Sequence record: MZ956761.1
Reading direction: 5' to 3' (one strand)
DNA length: 64,000 bases
Source of the DNA: a phage
This document shows, piece after piece, positions 7,758 to 58,387 of the stretch. Position numbers and translations under genes: made by a program. Each line of letters opens with the position of its first letter. Positions within the stretch are counted from its first letter, which is position 1. A model generated the notes under the pieces. It was not told where the DNA came from. It saw nothing but the letters and a program-made list of their open reading frames with translations, and ran no database searches.

Positions 7758-9323
7758 TTAGATACCTTTAACATATACACGGCGGAAGTAAGCGTTTTTA
7801 CCAAGGCTATTCAGAATAGAAGGCATACCGCTCTGGATGCGAGAAGCCGGAGCCTGAGCAGCGGATTCTGCAAATGGGTTGATACCGATACCGTAACGAG
7901 TTTTGAATCCCATTACTGGTTGGAAGTTCTTCGGATCGGAACCACGCAGCGGAGTCAGAGCTACATATGGAGCGTAGTAAATACCAGCATCCATTTCGTT
8001 CGGACCTTTATAACCTACAGTGAAATAATCCTGTTTAGCATACTGGTCGATATATACACGGTATTTACCACCCAGAACACCAGCAAATACTGACTTGGTA
8101 GTATCAGTGTTAAAGCCGGTAGCCAGACCCTGTGCAGCATAAGAAATGCCAGTATCAACTGAAGCCAGAACGTTAACTACGTTACGGGAAGCGATAATGA
8201 AGTTACCTTCACCACGACCGGTCTGACGAGCAATTTCAACTGCTTCTTTGTCAATCTGGAACAACAGAGCTTTAAAGGATTCACCCGCCCAGCGAGCACC
8301 ACGAATATCAATCGGATCCTGGAAGTCAAATACACCAGCTTTAGAACCCGGAGTCAGGGTCATACCAGATTTACCAACCTGAGCTGAGTAGTTAATCCAA
8401 TCAACAACTTCACGGTTGATTTCCAGCATGATTTCGGTAGCCAGAATACCAGACAGTTCAGCATCAGCATCCATACCGTGAACAGCGCGGAGGTCTTGTG
8501 CTAATTCGATAGAGTAAGCAGCTTTCAGCTGACGAGATTTAGCTTCGATAACTTGTTTATCAATACGGAAGCCCATTTCATTCCATGGGTTATCGGTAGA
8601 ACCGTTGAAACCTTCCTGAAGTTCAGCGATAGAAGTAGCCATACCTTCAGCGATTTCTACCAGTACACCAGCTTCCATTTGTTTCTTAATTTCAGCATCT
8701 AATTTAGCTGCGTCATCTGCAGTAGAACTAATTGTTACTTGAGCAGAAGCTTGCAGATACACAGTACCAGTGTCCTGGAAGAAGTGAGTATAGATATCAC
8801 CTACTGTAGTTTGCGTGCTAGCAGCCAGAGCTGGGAATTTCTTAGCAGCACCCTGACCAGAGAACATTGCATCTGGACCATACATTGGGTGGAATGCTTC
8901 TTTAGCACCGGCAGCGATTGGGTCTTTACCATATACTGCGCGCAGTGCGAATACCTGGCCAGTCGGGCTGTTCATCGGCTGAACACCGCAAATATCGAAA
9001 GCAATCAGGTTAGGAATAGCACGACGTACCATACCCATAACAGCTGGGCCAATCTGAGTTACTGCGCCAGAAGTCTGACCAGCAGCGATGTTAGTAGCGT
9101 TGTAACCGTGGTCACCACCGATTTCAGCTTCTGTTAAGAAAGAACCAAACGCCTGAGCGATTTTTTCGTCTTTGTATTCTGGAGCTGTCTGGAAATCTTT
9201 TTCCTGGTTTTCAAAGATTTTAGCGATAATCGCTTGTTTGCTATTAGCAATTTCCGGTAAACCTTCACCTTCCAGTAATGGCTTCCATTTGTTCAAAAGT
9301 TCAGCTTTAGTTTTGATAGTCAT
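7758..9323 (-). CDS. 23: gp23 major capsid protein
   Basis: 521 aa; MTIKTKAELLNKWKPLLEGEG N-terminus recognised as T4 gp23. Confidence 0.95.
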   Translation of the reverse strand: MTIKTKAELLNKWKPLLEGEGLPEIANSKQAIIAKIFENQEKDFQTAPEYKDEKIAQAFGSFLTEAEIGGDHGYNATNIAAGQTSGAVTQIGPAVMGMVRRAIPNLIAFDICGVQPMNSPTGQVFALRAVYGKDPIAAGAKEAFHPMYGPDAMFSGQGAAKKFPALAASTQTTVGDIYTHFFQDTGTVYLQASAQVTISSTADDAAKLDAEIKKQMEAGVLVEIAEGMATSIAELQEGFNGSTDNPWNEMGFRIDKQVIEAKSRQLKAAYSIELAQDLRAVHGMDADAELSGILATEIMLEINREVVDWINYSAQVGKSGMTLTPGSKAGVFDFQDPIDIRGARWAGESFKALLFQIDKEAVEIARQTGRGEGNFIIASRNVVNVLASVDTGISYAAQGLATGFNTDTTKSVFAGVLGGKYRVYIDQYAKQDYFTVGYKGPNEMDAGIYYAPYVALTPLRGSDPKNFQPVMGFKTRYGIGINPFAESAAQAPASRIQSGMPSILNSLGKNAYFRRVYVKGI

Positions 9324-41046: not shown

Positions 41047-41085
41047 GTTTACTTTTAGATAGGGTAGTGATACTATTACCCTATC
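41047..41085 (+). promoter_or_regulatory. early promoter with stem-loop (PeSL-like), copy 3
   Basis: GTTTAC-N18-TACTAT with inverted repeat GATAGGGTA/TACCCTATC around the -10. Confidence 0.5.
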
Positions 41086-41104
41086 AACTACTGAGGAGAA
41101 TAAA

Positions 41105-41290
41105 ATGAAACGTTGTGAATTAATTCGAAATGTTGCTATTGCAATTTCTGCTTCTGCTTTTAGTTTTTCAATGTTTGTTGGATTTATATGCGGATTATTG
41201 ACTACAGCAGAAAATGTTTTTTCACTTGTAGTAGCATTTTTAATTGGTTTAATTGCTATCGTTATGGATAAAATTTCTAAAGGTGAATAG
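41105..41290 (+). CDS. small two-helix membrane protein
   Basis: 61 aa, two hydrophobic stretches; GAGGAG SD. Confidence 0.45.
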   Translation: MKRCELIRNVAIAISASAFSFSMFVGFICGLLTTAENVFSLVVAFLIGLIAIVMDKISKGE

Positions 41291-49944: not shown

Positions 49945-50484
49945 ATGAGAACATTTTTAACTGGTCCTTATCTATCCCTGATGAATGCTTTTACACACCA
50001 TTCTGATGCTAGAGTAGAAGAAATTTGTAAAAACGAATATATCCCGCCATTTGAAGACTTACTCAAACAGTACTGCACACTTCGCATAGATGGTGGACGT
50101 CAATCCGGCAAATCAATTGCTGTGACTAACTTTGCTGCTAATTGGCTGTATGATGGCGGAACAGTTATTGTTCTTTCTAATACTTCAGCTTACGCTAAAA
50201 TTTCTGCAAATAACATCAAAAAGGAATTTTCGCGTTATTCTAATGATGATATACGTTTTCGTTTATTTACTGATTCTGTGCGCAGTTTTATTGGTAATAA
50301 AGGAAGCAAGTTCAGAGGTTTATCGCTTTCGCGAATTTTGTATATAATTGATGAGCCTGTCAAATCTCCTGATATGGATAAGATTTATAGTGTCCATATT
50401 GACACTGTACACTACTGCTGTAATAGTAAATGTTGCATTGGTGGTATTACTCGTCCGCAGTTTTTCGTAATCGGAATGCAATGA
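49945..50484 (+). CDS. small P-loop NTPase-like protein
   Basis: 179 aa from ATG with GAGAG SD; Walker A-like GGRQSGKS and Walker B-like ILYIIDEP. Confidence 0.5.
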   Translation: MRTFLTGPYLSLMNAFTHHSDARVEEICKNEYIPPFEDLLKQYCTLRIDGGRQSGKSIAVTNFAANWLYDGGTVIVLSNTSAYAKISANNIKKEFSRYSNDDIRFRLFTDSVRSFIGNKGSKFRGLSLSRILYIIDEPVKSPDMDKIYSVHIDTVHYCCNSKCCIGGITRPQFFVIGMQ

Positions 50485-53816: not shown

Positions 53817-54025
53817 ATATACATTATCCACATCCGTTTGATCCTAAAAACAAAGCAGTAATTATTCGTCAATGGGAACGCATTTGCCGTACTAAATGTC
53901 CAATTAATAGTCAACATGATGTAAATAAAGACTATATTGGAACATTCGTTGAATATACCTTTATTGATAAGAAAGGTCGTAAACAGCATGTAGAAGAATA
54001 TTGCTTAAAGGTTACATGGTTATGA
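53813..54025 (+). CDS. hypothetical small protein
   Basis: 70 aa; ATGA overlap with previous gene. Confidence 0.45.
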   Translation: MNIHYPHPFDPKNKAVIIRQWERICRTKCPINSQHDVNKDYIGTFVEYTFIDKKGRKQHVEEYCLKVTWL

Positions 54026-54228
54026 GCCAAACTAGTATTCTTAAAAATGCCCATTGTGAAAAGTGTAAATGGCCTGTTGTTTTTGCTTTATGTAATGATG
54101 AAATGGCTTGTGATTTCGATTATTGGTGCTATTGTTCTAATAAAGGATGCATCAATCATAAAGGTGAAGGATTTTATTCGGGATTTTATCCTTATCCTGA
54201 TTTCGTTAAAGAAGGTAAACCAAAATGA
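54016..54228 (+). CDS. small Cys-rich (zinc-ribbon-like) protein
   Basis: About 70 aa with CEKC...C...C...CYC...C; start Met at 54016 or 54022. Confidence 0.45.
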   Translation: MVMSQTSILKNAHCEKCKWPVVFALCNDEMACDFDYWCYCSNKGCINHKGEGFYSGFYPYPDFVKEGKPK

Positions 54229-54401
54229 ATGATGATTTAAAATATCAATTATTACGTGAACTTGATGTTTTGATTGAACTTTCTGCACAAAAAGGATTTA
54301 TAATTGGATCGGGTCAAAAAGACCCTAACGGTCATTCAATCGTAGCGGTTATGAATCAGAAACGAGTCATTTTAAAACTTTTGGGGATTGACATACTGTG
54401 A
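54225..54401 (+). CDS. hypothetical small protein
   Basis: 58-aa ORF below track cutoff; ATGA overlap upstream and GTGA overlap downstream. Confidence 0.4.
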   Translation: MNDDLKYQLLRELDVLIELSAQKGFIIGSGQKDPNGHSIVAVMNQKRVILKLLGIDIL

Positions 54402-54583
54402 GTCTAAGCAAAGAACAAAAAGATAAATTGTTTGAGCTTATCCATGAACTTCTAGATGAGCATACAGAAGCAAACACCTTTTATGATGAATACGGCCCGC
54501 TATCTCCCGAACAGCAGGAAGAATTTGCTGATCGGTTTGATAAGAAAGAAAATGAATTAATAGCTTATGTGAATACGCTTTAA
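54398..54583 (+). CDS. small acidic helical protein
   Basis: 61 aa, GTG start; resembles the small paralog family at 56402-57315. Confidence 0.45.
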   Translation: MSLSKEQKDKLFELIHELLDEHTEANTFYDEYGPLSPEQQEEFADRFDKKENELIAYVNTL

Positions 54584-54592
54584 GAAGGTGAT

Positions 54593-55174
54593 ATGGCGAG
54601 TTTAATTTTTACTTATGCAGCAATGAATGCTGGAAAATCTGCTTCTCTTTTGACTGCTGCACATAATTATAAAGAACGTGGAATGAGTGTATTAGTTCTT
54701 AAGCCTGCTATTGATACTCGCGATTCTGTCTGTGAAGTCGTTTCTCGCATTGGAATTAAGCAGGAAGCGAATATTATTACAGATGATATGGATATTTTCG
54801 AGTTCTATAAATGGGCTGAAGCACAAAAAGATATTCATTGCGTATTTGTAGATGAAGCTCAGTTTTTAAAAACTGAACAGGTGCATCAATTGAGCCGAAT
54901 TGTTGATACATATAATGTTCCTGTTATGGCTTATGGGCTAAGGACTGATTTCGCTGGAAAATTATTTGAAGGTTCTAAAGAACTTTTAGCGATTGCAGAT
55001 AAACTTATTGAACTAAAGGCAGTTTGTCATTGTGGTAAAAAAGCGATTATGACAGCTCGATTAATGGAAGATGGAACACCAGTTAAAGAAGGTAATCAAA
55101 TCTGTATTGGTGATGAAATTTATGTTTCTTTGTGTAGAAAACATTGGAATGAATTAACTAAAAAGCTCGGTTAG
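54593..55174 (+). CDS. tk: thymidine kinase
   Basis: 193 aa; P-loop YAAMNAGKS and C-terminal Cys zinc site. Confidence 0.9.
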   Translation: MASLIFTYAAMNAGKSASLLTAAHNYKERGMSVLVLKPAIDTRDSVCEVVSRIGIKQEANIITDDMDIFEFYKWAEAQKDIHCVFVDEAQFLKTEQVHQLSRIVDTYNVPVMAYGLRTDFAGKLFEGSKELLAIADKLIELKAVCHCGKKAIMTARLMEDGTPVKEGNQICIGDEIYVSLCRKHWNELTKKLG

Positions 55175-55216
55175 TGCAAAAGTTATAAATAGGTTTATCT
55201 AACTAAAGGGGTATAT

Positions 55217-55429
55217 ATGCTACAATTAACTGAAAAGCAACTTCGCAATCTTACTGTGCTTCAATTAGATGAAATTCGTAGGGAAGTTGGAAATATCATT
55301 TCAGCTTTGCGTCGAGAAGTATCACTCAACCAATCTCCGGCAGACTATACTAGATTGCGAAATTTTGAAAAATACCTTGATAAAGTTAAGGCCGTGCATC
55401 GGCATAAAGTAAATACAGGACAAAAATGA
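55217..55429 (+). CDS. hypothetical protein (position of T4 rI.1)
   Basis: 70-aa ORF between tk and rI. Confidence 0.5.
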
Positions 55430-55441
55430 TAGGAGGCCTTT

Positions 55442-55735
55442 ATGGCCTTAAAAGCAACGGCACTATTTGCCATGCTAGGATTGTCATTTGTTTTATCTCC
55501 ACCGATTGAAGCGAATGTCGATCCTCATTTTGATAAATTTATGGAATCTGGTATTAGGCACGTTTATATGCTTTTTGAAAATAAAAGCGTAGAATCGTCT
55601 GAACAATTCTATAGTTTTATGAGAACGACCTATAAAAATGACCCGTGCTCTTCTGATTTTGAATGTATAGAGCGAGGCGCGGAGATGGCACAATCATACG
55701 CTAGAATTATGAACATTAAATTGGAGACTGAATGA
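55442..55735 (+). CDS. rI: RI lysis-inhibition regulator (antiholin)
   Basis: 97 aa with N-terminal signal-anchor MALKATALFAMLGLSFVLS; matches T4 RI length and position. Confidence 0.8.
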   Translation: MALKATALFAMLGLSFVLSPPIEANVDPHFDKFMESGIRHVYMLFENKSVESSEQFYSFMRTTYKNDPCSSDFECIERGAEMAQSYARIMNIKLETE

Positions 55736-56118
55736 AATTCAGCGACTTTTCACAAAGTGGAAAACCTTCAAAGGCAGATGAATACTTAGGTTTATTAATG
55801 GCTGCACAAGCTTATTTTCATTCTGCACATTTTGAAACTAAAAGTTATGCTAGACACAAAGCATACGATTTTATTTTCTCTGAGTTACCAGATTTGATTG
55901 ATAAATTTGGTGAGCAATATTTGGGGTATTCTGGTAGAAAATACACACCTTCAATTCCAGATGCCAGTAAACTTCCTACCGACACAATTAAAATGATTGA
56001 TCGCATACTAGACCAATCTAACAGCATTTATAAAGAAATGCCTCCAGCCATCCAAAGCACGATAGATGATATTACTGGAATGTTTTACCAAAGTAAGTAT
56101 CTTCTTTCCCTCGAATAA
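55732..56118 (+). CDS. hypothetical protein (position of T4 rI.-1)
   Basis: 128-aa ORF, ATGA overlap with rI. Confidence 0.5.
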
Positions 56119-56122
56119 CATT

Positions 56123-56146
56123 AGTCTCCTTCGGGAGACTTTTTTC
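56123..56146 (+). terminator. intrinsic terminator
   Basis: AGTCTCC-TTCG-GGAGACT hairpin followed by TTTTT. Confidence 0.6.
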
Positions 56147-56155
56147 ATTTTACCG

Positions 56156-56185
56156 GTTTACTTTCCGTTTGAGCTGTGGTACTAT
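56156..56185 (+). promoter_or_regulatory. T4-type early promoter
   Basis: GTTTAC-N18-TGgTACTAT. Confidence 0.5.
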
Positions 56186-56213
56186 ACAACCATCGGATAA
56201 AGAGGAGAACATC

Positions 56214-56402
56214 ATGAAAATTGAAGCACTTAATCAAGAAGGAAATATCTACGTCATCATTAATGGTGATTTTTTCGTCGACATGGATGAAGTTACTAGT
56301 GAAGAACTTGTAGAACTTCTTAAGAAACGCTATAATATGTGTGATGAAGTTGCAACTCGCATGGCATGTGCAATATTCTCTCTTTCATATGTGGTGGAAT
56401 AA
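56214..56402 (+). CDS. hypothetical small protein
   Basis: 62 aa from ATG with GAGGAG SD (track ORF is 5'-extended). Confidence 0.5.
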
Positions 56403-56605
56403 TGATTAGTATCGAACAAGCGGATAAAATTAAGGAATTGGTAGCTTTAATTCGTAAAGCAGATGAGGAACTTAGTGACTTTGCTTGGTTTTCATCAGGC
56501 ATTGCAAATAAAGGTATTGAAGAATTTGAAGCTAAAGTTGATAATGCTTTAGAAGCGTTAGATATGTTTCTTGATGAAATTATCGATCATAATACGAGAG
56601 TTTAA
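56402..56605 (+). CDS. small helical protein, paralog family member
   Basis: 67 aa; TAATG overlap. Confidence 0.5.
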   Translation: MISIEQADKIKELVALIRKADEELSDFAWFSSGIANKGIEEFEAKVDNALEALDMFLDEIIDHNTRV

Positions 56606-56607
56606 GT

Positions 56608-56802
56608 ATGCTAACACGTGAACAGTTTGAAAAAATCATTAAATTAGCACGTGATATTGAAATAGATTCATATCAATTAGCAGTTGAGCATTGTGAAGGA
56701 TATTCATACGACGGTATAGAAGCAGCTAAAAGAGATTTGGATAAATCCAAAGCTAAGTTAGTTCAATATCTTGAAATGATTAGGTGGAATAATGAAAACT
56801 GA
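56608..56802 (+). CDS. small helical protein, paralog family member
   Basis: 64 aa. Confidence 0.5.
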   Translation: MLTREQFEKIIKLARDIEIDSYQLAVEHCEGYSYDGIEAAKRDLDKSKAKLVQYLEMIRWNNEN

Positions 56803-56965
56803 AAAGCAGATGTTTTTAATGAAGCTAATTGAAGAATATGCTAATGCAGTTTCTGACTATGAGTATTCTGCTCGGGAAAGAGGTACGGCTTTCGCTAAAG
56901 AAGAATTGAAAATCATGGTTGATGCTCATACAAAGCTTCAGAATTTTATCGAAAATGTCATTTAA
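56792..56965 (+). CDS. small helical protein, paralog family member
   Basis: 57-aa ORF below track cutoff, overlapping previous stop. Confidence 0.4.
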   Translation: MKTEKQMFLMKLIEEYANAVSDYEYSARERGTAFAKEELKIMVDAHTKLQNFIENVI

Positions 56966-56967
56966 TG

Positions 56968-57010
56968 GTTTACAAGTTGACAAGGTTATGGTATAGTAAT
57001 CTTGTCAACT
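56968..57010 (+). promoter_or_regulatory. T4-type early promoter with flanking inverted repeat
   Basis: GTTTAC-N18-TGgTATAGT; AGTTGACAAG/CTTGTCAACT arms around the -10. Confidence 0.5.
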
Positions 57011-57129
57011 GCCAAGGAGAAGAGAATGAAAGTTTTGTTTGTTGTGTATGTGATGATTCAATATAATTACCCAATGTTTACTTATAATTTGGTAAACAAC
57101 ATTATTGATATGATTCAGAGGAGTATGTA

Positions 57130-57315
57130 ATGACAAGTGAGCAGGCTTTTAAATTAAGAGAATTAATTGAGACGTATAGTAAAGCTGTTCATACATCAAC
57201 AATTATTGATGAATCAGCTTTCTCCGGACATGCTAACAAGATTAAATACAAAACTCTTATGGAAGAAGCTAAAGTAAATCTTGATTCTTATATTGAAACT
57301 TTAATTGGTAAATAA
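57130..57315 (+). CDS. small helical protein, paralog family member
   Basis: 61 aa. Confidence 0.5.
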   Translation: MTSEQAFKLRELIETYSKAVHTSTIIDESAFSGHANKIKYKTLMEEAKVNLDSYIETLIGK

Positions 57316-57316
57316 T

Positions 57317-57859
57317 ATGAAAGCTGTAATTGAAACAACTGATTTGTTCGGTGACCTGGTTATCGAAAAACGTGATAATGTATACGTTCTGACGCAGGAA
57401 GACGATAGTATTACTATTCTTCCTATGGAATTGCCTGCGATTTTATCTTATGCTCCCTCAGGAGTTACCGGTGTAACTAATATTACAGACGACCTCCAAG
57501 TTCGTTTTTATCGTGGCACTCACGGTGGTAATATTGAAACTGAACTTGCGTGTCTTTCTATCAACAATTGGGCAACATTCGTTGCCAAGGTGAAAGAATT
57601 CTTGGAATCTGAAACAGTCGAAACACCCGAAAAGGCTAAACTTCAATGGGCTAAAGATCGCGGTGCTAGCATTATTAATCCAGTAGCTGCAAATTATACT
57701 ACGACTTTGGATGTCAAGACTTCTTATGAAGATGGCGATGTCGTACTTGTTCGCCAAATTGATGATTCTCGAGCACATATTGTCACATTTACCAAAGACG
57801 AAGCTATTGCACTAAAGACTTATCTTGATTCTGTTATTCCAACTATGATTTCAAAGTGA
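57317..57859 (+). CDS. hypothetical protein, tandem paralog A
   Basis: 180 aa from Met of MKAVIET; C-terminus AIALKTYLDSVIPTM. Confidence 0.5.
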   Translation: MKAVIETTDLFGDLVIEKRDNVYVLTQEDDSITILPMELPAILSYAPSGVTGVTNITDDLQVRFYRGTHGGNIETELACLSINNWATFVAKVKEFLESETVETPEKAKLQWAKDRGASIINPVAANYTTTLDVKTSYEDGDVVLVRQIDDSRAHIVTFTKDEAIALKTYLDSVIPTMISK

Positions 57860-57865
57860 GGAAAT

Positions 57866-58387
57866 ATGTTTATTTCAAGTGGAAGTGGTTTAATTCGTGT
57901 TGAATTTAAAAATGACATCTTCCTTAGTCAAGGAGATGATATTATTAAAATGAGTTATGACGAAATCAAGAAAATTTGTCATGCTCTTGAAAGTCATGGA
58001 AAAGTGAACGCTGTTATTGATATTGGCGATTTATGGGTGACACTTTATGAAGTATCCGAAGGATTTAACATTGAAGATGAAAATAACATTTTAGCTATTG
58101 ATAAAAGAAGTGATTTGTTTGATGTATTAAAAGTTTATGAACAGTCAAATGGCGGAAGAAAAGCTGCATTGATTTATCAAAAACCGCATTCATGTGGAAC
58201 TGCTTCAATCATTTCAAATATTGAAGATGAAGTTGATACTTATATGTGTGTTTTAAAAGCTGGTGGTGACCGTCATCCGGATTTTATTTCTATTCGTCAA
58301 AACAATGGAGAAATTTCATTATCAAAATCAGAAGCTGAAGCTATGATTAAGTATTTAACAACTGTTACGCCTTCAATGAAAGGATAA
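57866..58387 (+). CDS. hypothetical protein, tandem paralog B
   Basis: 173 aa; C-terminus AEAMIKYLTTVTPSM. Confidence 0.5.
   Translation: MFISSGSGLIRVEFKNDIFLSQGDDIIKMSYDEIKKICHALESHGKVNAVIDIGDLWVTLYEVSEGFNIEDENNILAIDKRSDLFDVLKVYEQSNGGRKAALIYQKPHSCGTASIISNIEDEVDTYMCVLKAGGDRHPDFISIRQNNGEISLSKSEAEAMIKYLTTVTPSMKG

What the first reader, a model, noticed from the sequence alone, without database searches (positions are those of the whole stretch)
56402..57315. Tandem family of roughly 60-aa helical paralogs
Four consecutive ORFs (56402, 56608, 56792, 57130), plus a fifth at 54398, share an N-terminal pattern [S/T]xEQxxK[I/L]xxLI and a C-terminal Lxx[Y/F][I/L]E-like helix end ([17 protein letters not shown]...LDMFLDEII; MLTREQFEKIIKLARDI...LVQYLEMI; MKTEKQMFLMKLIEEYA...LQNFIENVI; MTSEQAFKLRELIETYS...LDSYIETLIGK; MSLSKEQKDKLFELIHELL...LIAYVNTL). 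Repeated duplication and divergence of a small two-helix protein suggests a family diversifying against host targets.
Basis: seen in the sequence. Interest (0 to 1): 0.5.

Follow-up and report, generated by a model that had tools for sequence, protein, structure and literature searches.

The report
Small helical-hairpin paralogs in T4-like phage

Summary
The window is a Tequatrovirus genome, 100% identical to Escherichia phage ADUt. The five ORFs are real, annotated genes. All five match Pfam DUF7438 (57-70 bits, cut-off 25). Profiles built without each gene's own orthologs still find it (E 2e-7 to 2e-12; best unrelated ORF 0.14).

They correspond to T4 tk.2, mobD.4, mobD.3 and an intact mobD.2a, which is frameshifted in the T4 RefSeq. 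The fifth gene is absent from T4 and is wrongly labelled 'helicase loader' in some databases. AlphaFold2 predicts a two-helix hairpin (pLDDT 83 and 95). That fold is too generic to indicate a function.

The family is small: 33 clusters among 1.84 billion proteins, almost all from T4-like enterobacterial phages. It sits at two hot-spots around tk and rI, behind conserved T4 early promoters.

- **Copy number:** 2-5 per locus. It changes by frameshift, cassette swap and in-register paralog chimeras.
- **Age and selection:** the paralogs are old and under purifying selection (dN/dS 0.06-0.36), not gene-wide diversifying selection.
- **Essentiality:** published T4 transposon data call them non-essential.

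My best inference is that they are redundant early accessory proteins that bind host factors. That is unproven. Novelty: already known as a family. Interest: low to moderate.

The parts
54398..54583 (+). Paralog A, 61 aa, GTG start overlapping the stop of the upstream ORF. It is the ortholog of T4 tk.2 but a divergent allele: 54% identity to T4 tk.2 and 79-87% to the Gaprivervirus/Dhakavirus copies.
   Evidence: DUF7438 E 2.9e-19; phrog_653; ortholog identities; annotated CDS in ADUt
56402..56605 (+). Paralog B, 67 aa, ortholog of T4 mobD.4. It is the long-loop variant; T4 has a 60-aa form. Very acidic (pI 4.3, net charge -9). The loop is the variable part.
   Evidence: DUF7438 E 5.3e-16; per-site variability; dN/dS 0.32; charge
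56608..56802 (+). Paralog C, 64 aa, ortholog of T4 mobD.3 (98% identity). It is the most widespread and best conserved member, with an almost invariant loop AVEHCEGYSY.
   Evidence: DUF7438 E 2.7e-17; AF2 hairpin H4-28/H34-63, pLDDT 82.6; 589 phage records; dN/dS 0.07
56792..56965 (+). Paralog D, 57 aa, overlapping the end of C by 11 nt. It is the intact form of T4 mobD.2a, which in T4 RefSeq is cut to 38 aa by a 1-nt deletion.
   Evidence: DUF7438 E 1.8e-15; phrog_2758; DNA alignment with T4; both halves found in two frames in T4; dN/dS 0.06
57130..57315 (+). Paralog E, 61 aa, absent from T4 and present in about a third of related genomes. It carries the unsupported database label 'helicase loader' (phrog_4859).
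   Evidence: DUF7438 E 1.4e-15; AF2 hairpin H3-28/H34-58, pLDDT 95.2; 193 records; no similarity to gp59
56123..56185 (+). Composite element heading the B-C-D operon. It comprises a terminator-like stem-loop (56123-56140) after rI.-1 and a T4-type early promoter TTTACT-N17-TACTAT (56157-56185). It is identical to the T4 mobD.5 promoter region except for one T in a T-run. It is PeSL-like.
   Evidence: mobD.5 promoter detected by primer extension in T4 (PMC1702504); PeSL consensus TTTACW-N17-TAYWAT (PMC4122927)
56214..56402 (+). mobD.5 ortholog (62 aa), the first gene of the operon. Its stop overlaps the start of B. It is not a family member.
   Evidence: phrog_3024 and no DUF7438 hit; T4 map
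56969..57010 (+). Second early promoter (TTTACA-N17-TATAGT with an upstream TG), overlapped by a 14-nt inverted repeat (56975-56988 / 56997-57010). It matches the T4 Pe57.9 region at 70 of 71 bases and drives mobD.2 and E.
   Evidence: Pe57.9/Pe57954 named as T4 early promoters (PMC6024815)
57026..57130 (+). mobD.2 ortholog (34 aa, hydrophobic). Its stop overlaps the start of E. It is not a family member.

Best explanation
Shown: the five ORFs are protein-coding members of Pfam DUF7438. This is a small family found almost only in T4-like (Tevenvirinae) phages of enterobacteria. Each protein is a roughly 60-residue antiparallel two-helix hairpin.

The start of helix 1 (an [ST]xxE capping box followed by hydrophobic positions 10, 13, 14 and 17) packs against the end of helix 2 (positions 51, 54, 55 and 58). 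This forms a conserved clasp. The half of the hairpin nearest the loop, and the exposed faces, differ between paralogs.

The genes sit at two conserved hot-spots, upstream of tk and downstream of rI.-1. They form tightly packed, translationally coupled strings behind conserved T4 early promoters. They are old paralogs, each kept by purifying selection. Copy number is reshuffled by frameshift, deletion, in-register recombination between neighbours and cassette exchange. In T4 they are individually dispensable on E. coli K-12.

Inferred: they are early accessory proteins that act stoichiometrically by binding other macromolecules. The most likely partners are host proteins involved in take-over or anti-phage defence. 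In this reading the conserved clasp is a stable scaffold. The paralog-specific loop and helix surfaces set target specificity, and partial redundancy hides single-knockout phenotypes. Most members are strongly acidic (median pI 4.4, net charge -8), so basic or nucleic-acid-binding partners are plausible.

The confidence given is for the inferred function. The family identity and fold are near certain.
For: - Family membership.
- Fold. Conserved core positions.
- Restricted distribution: 33 clusters at 50% identity in 1.84e9 proteins. Named sources are all T4-like phages of Escherichia, Shigella, Yersinia, Salmonella, Citrobacter and Edwardsiella.
- Two hot-spots conserved across Tequatro-, Gapriver-, Dhaka-, Moon- and Gelderlandvirus.
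- Early promoters conserved with T4 and experimentally active in T4 (PMC1702504; PMC6024815).
- Overlapping stop/start junctions.
- Purifying selection, dN/dS 0.06-0.36, and cross-genus conservation.
- Paralog-specific conservation patterns: variable loop in B, invariant loop in C.
- Copy-number change; chimeras P0098 and P0127.
- Non-essential in T4: the nrdC.11-mobD.3 block is deletable (PMC9825161), and transposon insertions are tolerated in tk.1, tk.2, mobD.2a, mobD.3 and mobD.4 (HIDEN-SEQ supplement).
- Acidity.
- No enzyme or DNA-binding domain.
Against: - No partner, phenotype or localisation is known for any member.
- The two literature terms mobD.3 and mobD.4 retrieved only a deletion study, and no paper held DUF7438.
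- In the one HIDEN-SEQ comparison table I read (T4 reference versus the ΔrnlA library), none of these genes changed significantly (adjusted p 1.0). They are not among the hits named in the main-text passages I read. I did not read the RexAB, clinical-isolate and Mokosh tables.
- dN/dS gives no sign of an arms race at the whole-gene level.
- D and E are not acidic.
- Location among early accessory genes is only guilt by association.
Confidence: 0.4

Rival explanations
1. Rop-like nucleic-acid binders. The hairpins would dimerise into four-helix bundles that bind structured RNA or DNA, and so tune phage early mRNA stability, translation or replication rather than targeting host proteins.
Confidence: 0.1
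2. Phage-internal adaptors or chaperones. Each hairpin would bind and modulate a phage protein, for example members of the dNTP-synthesis complex around Tk, lysis-inhibition proteins rI/rI.-1, or the neighbouring y05I-like factors.
For: The family is stably linked to tk, rI and mobD.1 across five genera. Purifying selection with little sign of an arms race fits a conserved internal partner.
Against: Copy number and paralog content vary while the neighbours stay 99-100% identical. Members are lost or frameshifted without loss of neighbours. Single disruptions give no defect on K-12.
Confidence: 0.15
3. The database labels are right. E would be a helicase loader, and mobD.3/mobD.4 would be molybdopterin-guanine dinucleotide biosynthesis proteins.
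For: Only the labels themselves: phrog_4859 'helicase loader', propagated to RefSeq records; and 'MobD' product names.
Against: E has no similarity to the genome's own gp59 helicase loader (best BLASTP E 0.84) and no Pfam hit other than DUF7438. It is a 61-aa hairpin, against a 212-aa two-domain protein. The molybdopterin label is a confusion with the T4 gene name mobD, a homing endonuclease. No cofactor-biosynthesis domain is present.
Confidence: 0.01
4. Functionless filler. The ORFs would be remnants carried along by recombination at promoter and stem-loop cassettes, with no selected protein function.
For: The genes are non-essential. They are frequently lost or frameshifted and lie in a hyperplastic region flanked by PeSL-like elements.
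Against: dN/dS of 0.06-0.07 for C and D, and 0.3 for A and B. Orthologs are conserved across genera as well as thymidine kinase is. The structural core is conserved in all 43 diverse members.
Confidence: 0.05

Closest known systems
Pfam DUF7438 (PF24219); T4 genes tk.1, tk.2, mobD.3, mobD.4 and mobD.2a; PHROGs 653, 2758 and 4859
   Same: This is the same family. All five ORFs score 57-70 bits against the full-length profile. B and C are 79-98% identical to T4 MobD.4 and MobD.3, and D is the intact version of mobD.2a.
   Different: This genome carries the intact D plus a fifth type (E) that T4 lacks, and it lacks tk.1. Its tk.2 is a divergent allele. PHROGs splits the family into three groups, one of them with a misleading name.
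Rop/Rom of ColE1 (63-aa alpha-hairpin that forms a homodimeric four-helix bundle and binds RNA kissing complexes)
   Different: There is no detectable sequence homology. The family is acidic rather than RNA-binding in character. Dimerisation and RNA binding are untested.
Small early host-takeover and counter-defence proteins of T-even phages (from my own knowledge: AsiA, Arn, Dmd, Stp; from the HIDEN-SEQ preprint: NrdC.1 as a Septu inhibitor)
   Same: They share early expression, small size, dispensability on laboratory hosts, and location in variable accessory regions of the same genome arm.
   Different: Those proteins have defined targets. No target is known here, there is no sequence or specific fold relation to any of them, and no other is a five- or six-fold paralogous set.
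SSV1 D-63 (helical hairpin that dimerises to a four-helix bundle)
   Same: It is a viral alpha-hairpin of about 60 aa and appears in the Foldseek list (1skv).
   Different: The match is not significant (E 1.6, TM 0.47), the virus is archaeal, and its function is also unknown.
PeSL cassettes (early promoter plus stem-loop) of T4-type phages
   Same: The rI.-1/mobD.5 junction carries a stem-loop followed by TTTACT-N17-TACTAT. This matches the published PST/T4 consensus (PMC4122927).
   Different: This concerns how the gene sets are shuffled, not what the proteins do. I did not show recombination at these particular elements.

Membership tests
Pfam DUF7438 (PF24219) | Whole-protein score above the curated gathering cut-off (25 bits) over the full 57-position profile | tested here: met
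   The scores are 59.2, 63.3, 57.5, 57.8 and 69.6 bits, with profile coverage 1-56/57. All 20 distant relatives also match.
Pfam DUF7438 (PF24219) | Homology detectable without the gene's own orthologs, as a guard against circularity of the Pfam seed | tested here: met
   Leave-one-orthogroup-out HMMs give E 2e-7 (A), 2e-12 (B), 8e-11 (C), 5e-6 (D) and 3e-9 (E). The best unrelated segment scores 0.14 or worse.
Pfam DUF7438 (PF24219) | A single-domain protein of about 60 residues forming a two-helix hairpin | tested here: met
   The ORFs are 57-67 aa. AF2 predicts two helices with a short loop for C (pLDDT 82.6) and E (pLDDT 95.2).
T4 gp59-type helicase loader (the label on phrog_4859 and on E in RefSeq) | Sequence similarity to gp59 or to the Pfam gp59 domains | tested here: not met
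   BLASTP of E against this phage's own gp59 gives a best E of 0.84 over 8 residues. At E up to 1, Pfam lists only DUF7438 and a weak Toast-rack hit.
T4 gp59-type helicase loader | A two-domain protein of about 215 aa | tested here: not met
   E is a 61-aa single hairpin. The gp59 gene in this genome encodes 212 aa.
Molybdopterin-guanine dinucleotide biosynthesis protein (the label on mobD.3/mobD.4 in RefSeq) | A nucleotidyl-transferase or P-loop domain of the Mob proteins | tested here: not met
   No such Pfam hit is found. The name derives from the T4 gene mobD, a homing endonuclease.
Rop/Rom | Alpha-hairpin monomer of about 60 aa | tested here: met
Rop/Rom | Sequence homology to the Rop family | tested here: not met
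Rop/Rom | Homodimeric four-helix bundle that binds RNA loop-loop complexes | not testable with these tools
   Only monomer prediction is available, and there are no binding data.
Phage early accessory / host-takeover proteins (a functional class) | Transcribed from early promoters | tested here: met
   Promoter sequences are conserved with T4. The T4 counterparts are experimentally active early (PMC1702504; PMC6024815). Expression in this phage is inferred, not measured.
Phage early accessory / host-takeover proteins (a functional class) | Dispensable on a laboratory host | tested here: met
   This rests on the literature for the T4 orthologs only: the HIDEN-SEQ supplement classes them 'Non-essential', and the nrdC.11-mobD.3 block can be deleted.
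Phage early accessory / host-takeover proteins (a functional class) | Binds or inhibits a defined host factor or defence system | not testable with these tools
   No interaction data were found. There is no match to PADLOC models.

The most novel reading that the evidence does not exclude
The DUF7438 hairpins are a paralogous battery of decoys or inhibitors. Each paralog would neutralise a different host factor or anti-phage defence protein through its own loop and helix surface. Gain, loss and chimera formation at two recombination hot-spots would then tune which hosts a T4-like phage can infect. Redundancy would explain why single knockouts in T4 show no phenotype.
Probability: 0.25. Interest if true: 0.55.

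Novelty: already known. Interest (0 to 1): 0.25.

Why it matters
T4 is the best-studied phage, yet close to half of its genes have no known function. This family alone accounts for four to five of them, and it is conserved across at least five genera.

Showing that a minimal 60-residue hairpin scaffold has been copied and specialised would give a compact, easily synthesised set of candidate host-factor or defence inhibitors. It would also explain part of the variable 'accessory' content that distinguishes otherwise near-identical therapeutic T4-like phages.

On the practical side, two database labels attached to these genes are wrong and should not be propagated: 'helicase loader' and 'molybdopterin-guanine dinucleotide biosynthesis protein MobD'.

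Tried and rejected
- **rI.1 as a sixth member.** This 70-aa protein (55217-55429) has look-alike N- and C-terminal motifs, but hhalign gives probability 1.7% and no HMM hit. Rejected.
- **Further members elsewhere.** I scanned the window and the whole ADUt genome. The only weak hits were L017 10231-10458 (E 0.034), L003 23329-23550 (E 0.09, which is DUF5495) and window 41063-41287 (E 0.14 or worse). Pfam confirms none of them as DUF7438.
- **PADLOC.** No meaningful hit.
- **Literature.** Searches for DUF7438, mobD.2-mobD.5 and tk.1/tk.2 found no functional study.
- **The search for related loci.** It failed with the family alignment because no stretch was conserved enough. With mobD.3 alone it returned only 7 viral contigs.
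- **Gene-wide positive selection.** Not found. Site-level tests were not possible with so few DNA sequences.
- **Distant metagenomic members.** Their contexts (L019, L020) were too short to be informative. L020 carries a PolA fragment and an SNF2 helicase.

Full report
**What the window is.** The region 54200-57900 is 100% identical to Escherichia phage ADUt and 97-99% identical to hundreds of Tequatrovirus genomes. The window's + strand corresponds to the minus strand of the T4 reference.

Using the T4 map and the annotated relatives, the gene order is as follows:
- vs, tk.4 and tk.3.
- Two small ORFs that T4 lacks: 54022-54228, a Phage_zn_bind protein, and 54225-54401.
- Paralog A (54398), then tk, rI.1, rI and rI.-1.
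- A stem-loop and an early promoter, then mobD.5.
- B (56402), C (56608) and D (56792).
- A second early promoter, then mobD.2 and E (57130).
- Two mobD.1-like genes, a membrane protein and nrdC.11.

Pairwise local alignment against 1000 shuffles is significant for six of the ten pairs (z 2.9-6.6) and at chance for four. Pairwise comparison alone would therefore leave D's link to A, B and C, and the C-E link, in doubt.

Profiles remove the doubt:
- An HMM built from any four ORFs ranks the fifth first among 909 six-frame segments of the window.
- HMMs built from 31-40 relatives in other phages, with everything at least 35% identical to the tested ORF removed, detect A-E at E 2e-7, 2e-12, 8e-11, 5e-6 and 3e-9. 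The best unrelated segment scores 0.14 or worse.
- All five pass the Pfam DUF7438 gathering score over the whole profile.
- Distant members bridge the paralog groups. P0135, for example, is 38% identical to tk.1, 41% to mobD.3 and 30% to mobD.4.

The whole ADUt genome contains exactly these five members.

**Correspondence with T4.**
- A is the ortholog of tk.2, but a divergent allele. It is 54% identical to T4 Tk.2 and 79-87% identical to the copies in Gaprivervirus and Dhakavirus.
- B is mobD.4 in a long-loop form: 67 aa against 60 aa in T4.
- C is mobD.3 (98% identical).
- D is the intact form of mobD.2a. The T4 RefSeq has a 1-nt deletion that splits the gene into two frames. The T4D annotation in the HIDEN-SEQ supplement lists a 174-nt mobD.2a, so the frameshift is specific to the reference sequence or stock.
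- E has no T4 counterpart.
- T4 tk.1 is a sixth type that this genome lacks.

**Structure.** AlphaFold2 predicts an antiparallel two-helix hairpin for C (H4-28, H34-63; pLDDT 82.6) and for E (H3-28, H34-58; pLDDT 95.2).

In a 43-sequence alignment the strongly conserved hydrophobic columns are 2, 10, 13, 14 and 17 in helix 1, and 44, 51, 54, 55 and 58 in helix 2. The two ends of the chain therefore clasp each other, while the half nearest the loop is free to vary. The conserved [ST]xEQ at the N-terminus has the form of a helix capping box; this is my inference.

The fold is too common to be informative:
- Foldseek finds nothing significant in the PDB.
- BFVD returns only uncharacterised proteins of T4-like phages.

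Most members are very acidic, with median pI 4.4 and net charge -8. D and E are near neutral.

**Distribution.** An exhaustive HMMER scan of 1.84 billion representative proteins finds only 33 clusters at E 0.001 or better. Apart from truncated fragments, two fusion products and one unrelated repeat protein, they are 50-65 aa long.

Named sources are Tevenvirinae phages of enterobacteria: Tequatro-, Mosig-, Gapriver-, Dhaka-, Moon- and Gelderlandvirus, plus Edwardsiella phage PEi20. One weak member lies on a short contig with a PolA fragment and an SNF2 helicase. It may belong to another phage type.

In every genus examined, the genes sit at the same two places: between tk.4 and tk, and just after rI.-1.

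**Dynamics.** Copy number per locus ranges from 2 to 5. In the phage collection, tblastn finds mobD.3 in 589 records, D in 492, E in 193 and tk.1 in 195.

Mechanisms visible in the data:
- The frameshift in T4 mobD.2a.
- Replacement of the tk.3-tk interval by alternative cassettes carrying different tk.2 alleles.
- In-register tk.2/tk.1 chimeras: P0098 from phage UFV-AREG1 and P0127.
- Loop indels in mobD.4.

Both sub-clusters are headed by early promoters with stem-loops or inverted repeats. The first matches the published PeSL consensus for the PST/T4 pair (PMC4122927). PeSLs have been proposed to mediate modular shuffling in T4-type hyperplastic regions. An identical 13-nt ribosome-site/start junction, GGTGGAATAATGA, precedes both B and D.

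**Selection.** Pooled Nei-Gojobori estimates over eight Tequatrovirus loci are shown below.

| Gene | dN/dS |
|---|---|
| C | 0.07 |
| D | 0.06 |
| B | 0.32 |
| A (two alleles) | 0.36 |
| Neighbouring genes tk, rI.1, rI, rI.-1, mobD.5 | 0.02-0.16 |

The genes therefore encode selected proteins, and there is no gene-wide diversifying selection.

The conservation pattern differs by paralog. B varies in its loop and keeps its C-terminal helix invariant. C keeps its loop AVEHCEGYSY invariant and varies on the helix faces. A varies at the loop and the start of helix 2. This fits old paralogs with distinct functional surfaces.

**Expression and dispensability.**
- The promoter regions are essentially identical to T4's.
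- In T4, a mobD.5 promoter transcript is seen by primer extension early in infection (PMC1702504).
- Pe57.9/Pe57954 are listed among T4 early promoters (PMC6024815).
- Stop/start overlaps suggest translational coupling.
- The T4 orthologs are non-essential. The nrdC.11-mobD.3 block can be deleted (PMC9825161).
- Transposon insertions are tolerated in tk.1, tk.2, mobD.2a, mobD.3 and mobD.4. None showed a significant change in the one comparison table I read (HIDEN-SEQ preprint supplement).

**Function.** Nothing in the literature I could search assigns a function.

Two database labels are wrong. 'Helicase loader' for E comes from phrog_4859, yet E has no similarity to this genome's own gp59. 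'Molybdopterin-guanine dinucleotide biosynthesis protein MobD' is a confusion with the gene name.

My best inference, at about 0.4 confidence, is that these are early accessory proteins that act by binding other macromolecules, most probably host factors or defence proteins. A conserved hairpin scaffold would carry paralog-specific surfaces, and redundancy would mask single knockouts. The rivals are a Rop-like RNA-binding role, adaptors for phage proteins, and functionless filler. The filler rival is contradicted by the selection data.

**Verdict.** The family is already catalogued as Pfam DUF7438 and as T4 ORFs known since the 1986 sequence X04567. Novelty is therefore 'already known', and interest is low to moderate.

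Noticed in passing
window 57317-57859 and 57866-58387 (+): These are two adjacent paralogs of the T4 MobD.1 / y05I-like 'putative transcription factor' family. Both match T4_y05I_N and T4_y05I_C. T4 has one copy followed by the mobD HNH homing endonuclease, which this genome lacks.
   Followed up: partly
window 54022-54401 (+): Two small ORFs fill the interval between tk.3 and paralog A: a Phage_zn_bind protein of 68 aa and a 58-aa phrog_3452 protein. T4 has tk.1 after tk.2 instead. This is an alternative cassette at the same hot-spot, linked to the divergent tk.2 allele.
   Followed up: partly
L002 (T4 NC_000866) 7997-8178, equivalent to window 56792-56965: T4 RefSeq mobD.2a (38 aa) is a frameshifted copy of a 57-aa DUF7438 gene, caused by a 1-nt deletion. 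The T4D annotation in the HIDEN-SEQ supplement lists a 174-nt mobD.2a, so the reference may carry a stock-specific mutation or a sequencing error.
   Followed up: yes
window 56975-57010 (+): A 14-nt inverted repeat (93% complementary, 8 nt between the arms) overlaps the -35 and -10 hexamers of the early promoter upstream of mobD.2. The sequence is conserved in T4 (70 of 71 bases). It may be a PeSL-type stem-loop or an operator-like site.
   Followed up: partly
window 56123-56185 (+): A GC-rich hairpin with a T-run lies right after rI.-1, and reads as terminator-like on both strands. It is followed by TTTACT-N17-TACTAT. This composite terminator-promoter matches the published PeSL consensus for T4/PST.
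   Followed up: partly
proteins P0098 and P0127: These are natural chimeras joining the N-terminal helix of Tk.2 to the C-terminal helix of Tk.1. P0098, from phage UFV-AREG1, is joined in register. P0127 has a shortened loop. Both look like deletions between adjacent paralogs.
   Followed up: partly
public records: Misleading product names are being propagated: 'helicase loader' for E-type genes and 'molybdopterin-guanine dinucleotide biosynthesis protein MobD' for mobD.3/mobD.4. In the ADUt record there are also 'thioredoxin' for the whole nrdC.x series, 'prohead core protein' for a membrane protein, and others.
   Followed up: partly
L020 1056-1232 (Logan contig SRR30224738_45879): The weakest family member examined (P0137) lies between a family-A DNA polymerase fragment and an SNF2-type helicase. 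This is not a T4-like arrangement, so the family may reach beyond Straboviridae.
   Followed up: partly
window 1 and 50012 versus OQ466432: The window runs across the arbitrary linear ends of the ADUt GenBank record. Window position 50012 equals record position 1, and window position 1 equals record position 116795. This leaves about 99 bases of the record's end unaccounted for, probably from circular permutation or terminal redundancy in how the record was cut.
   Followed up: no
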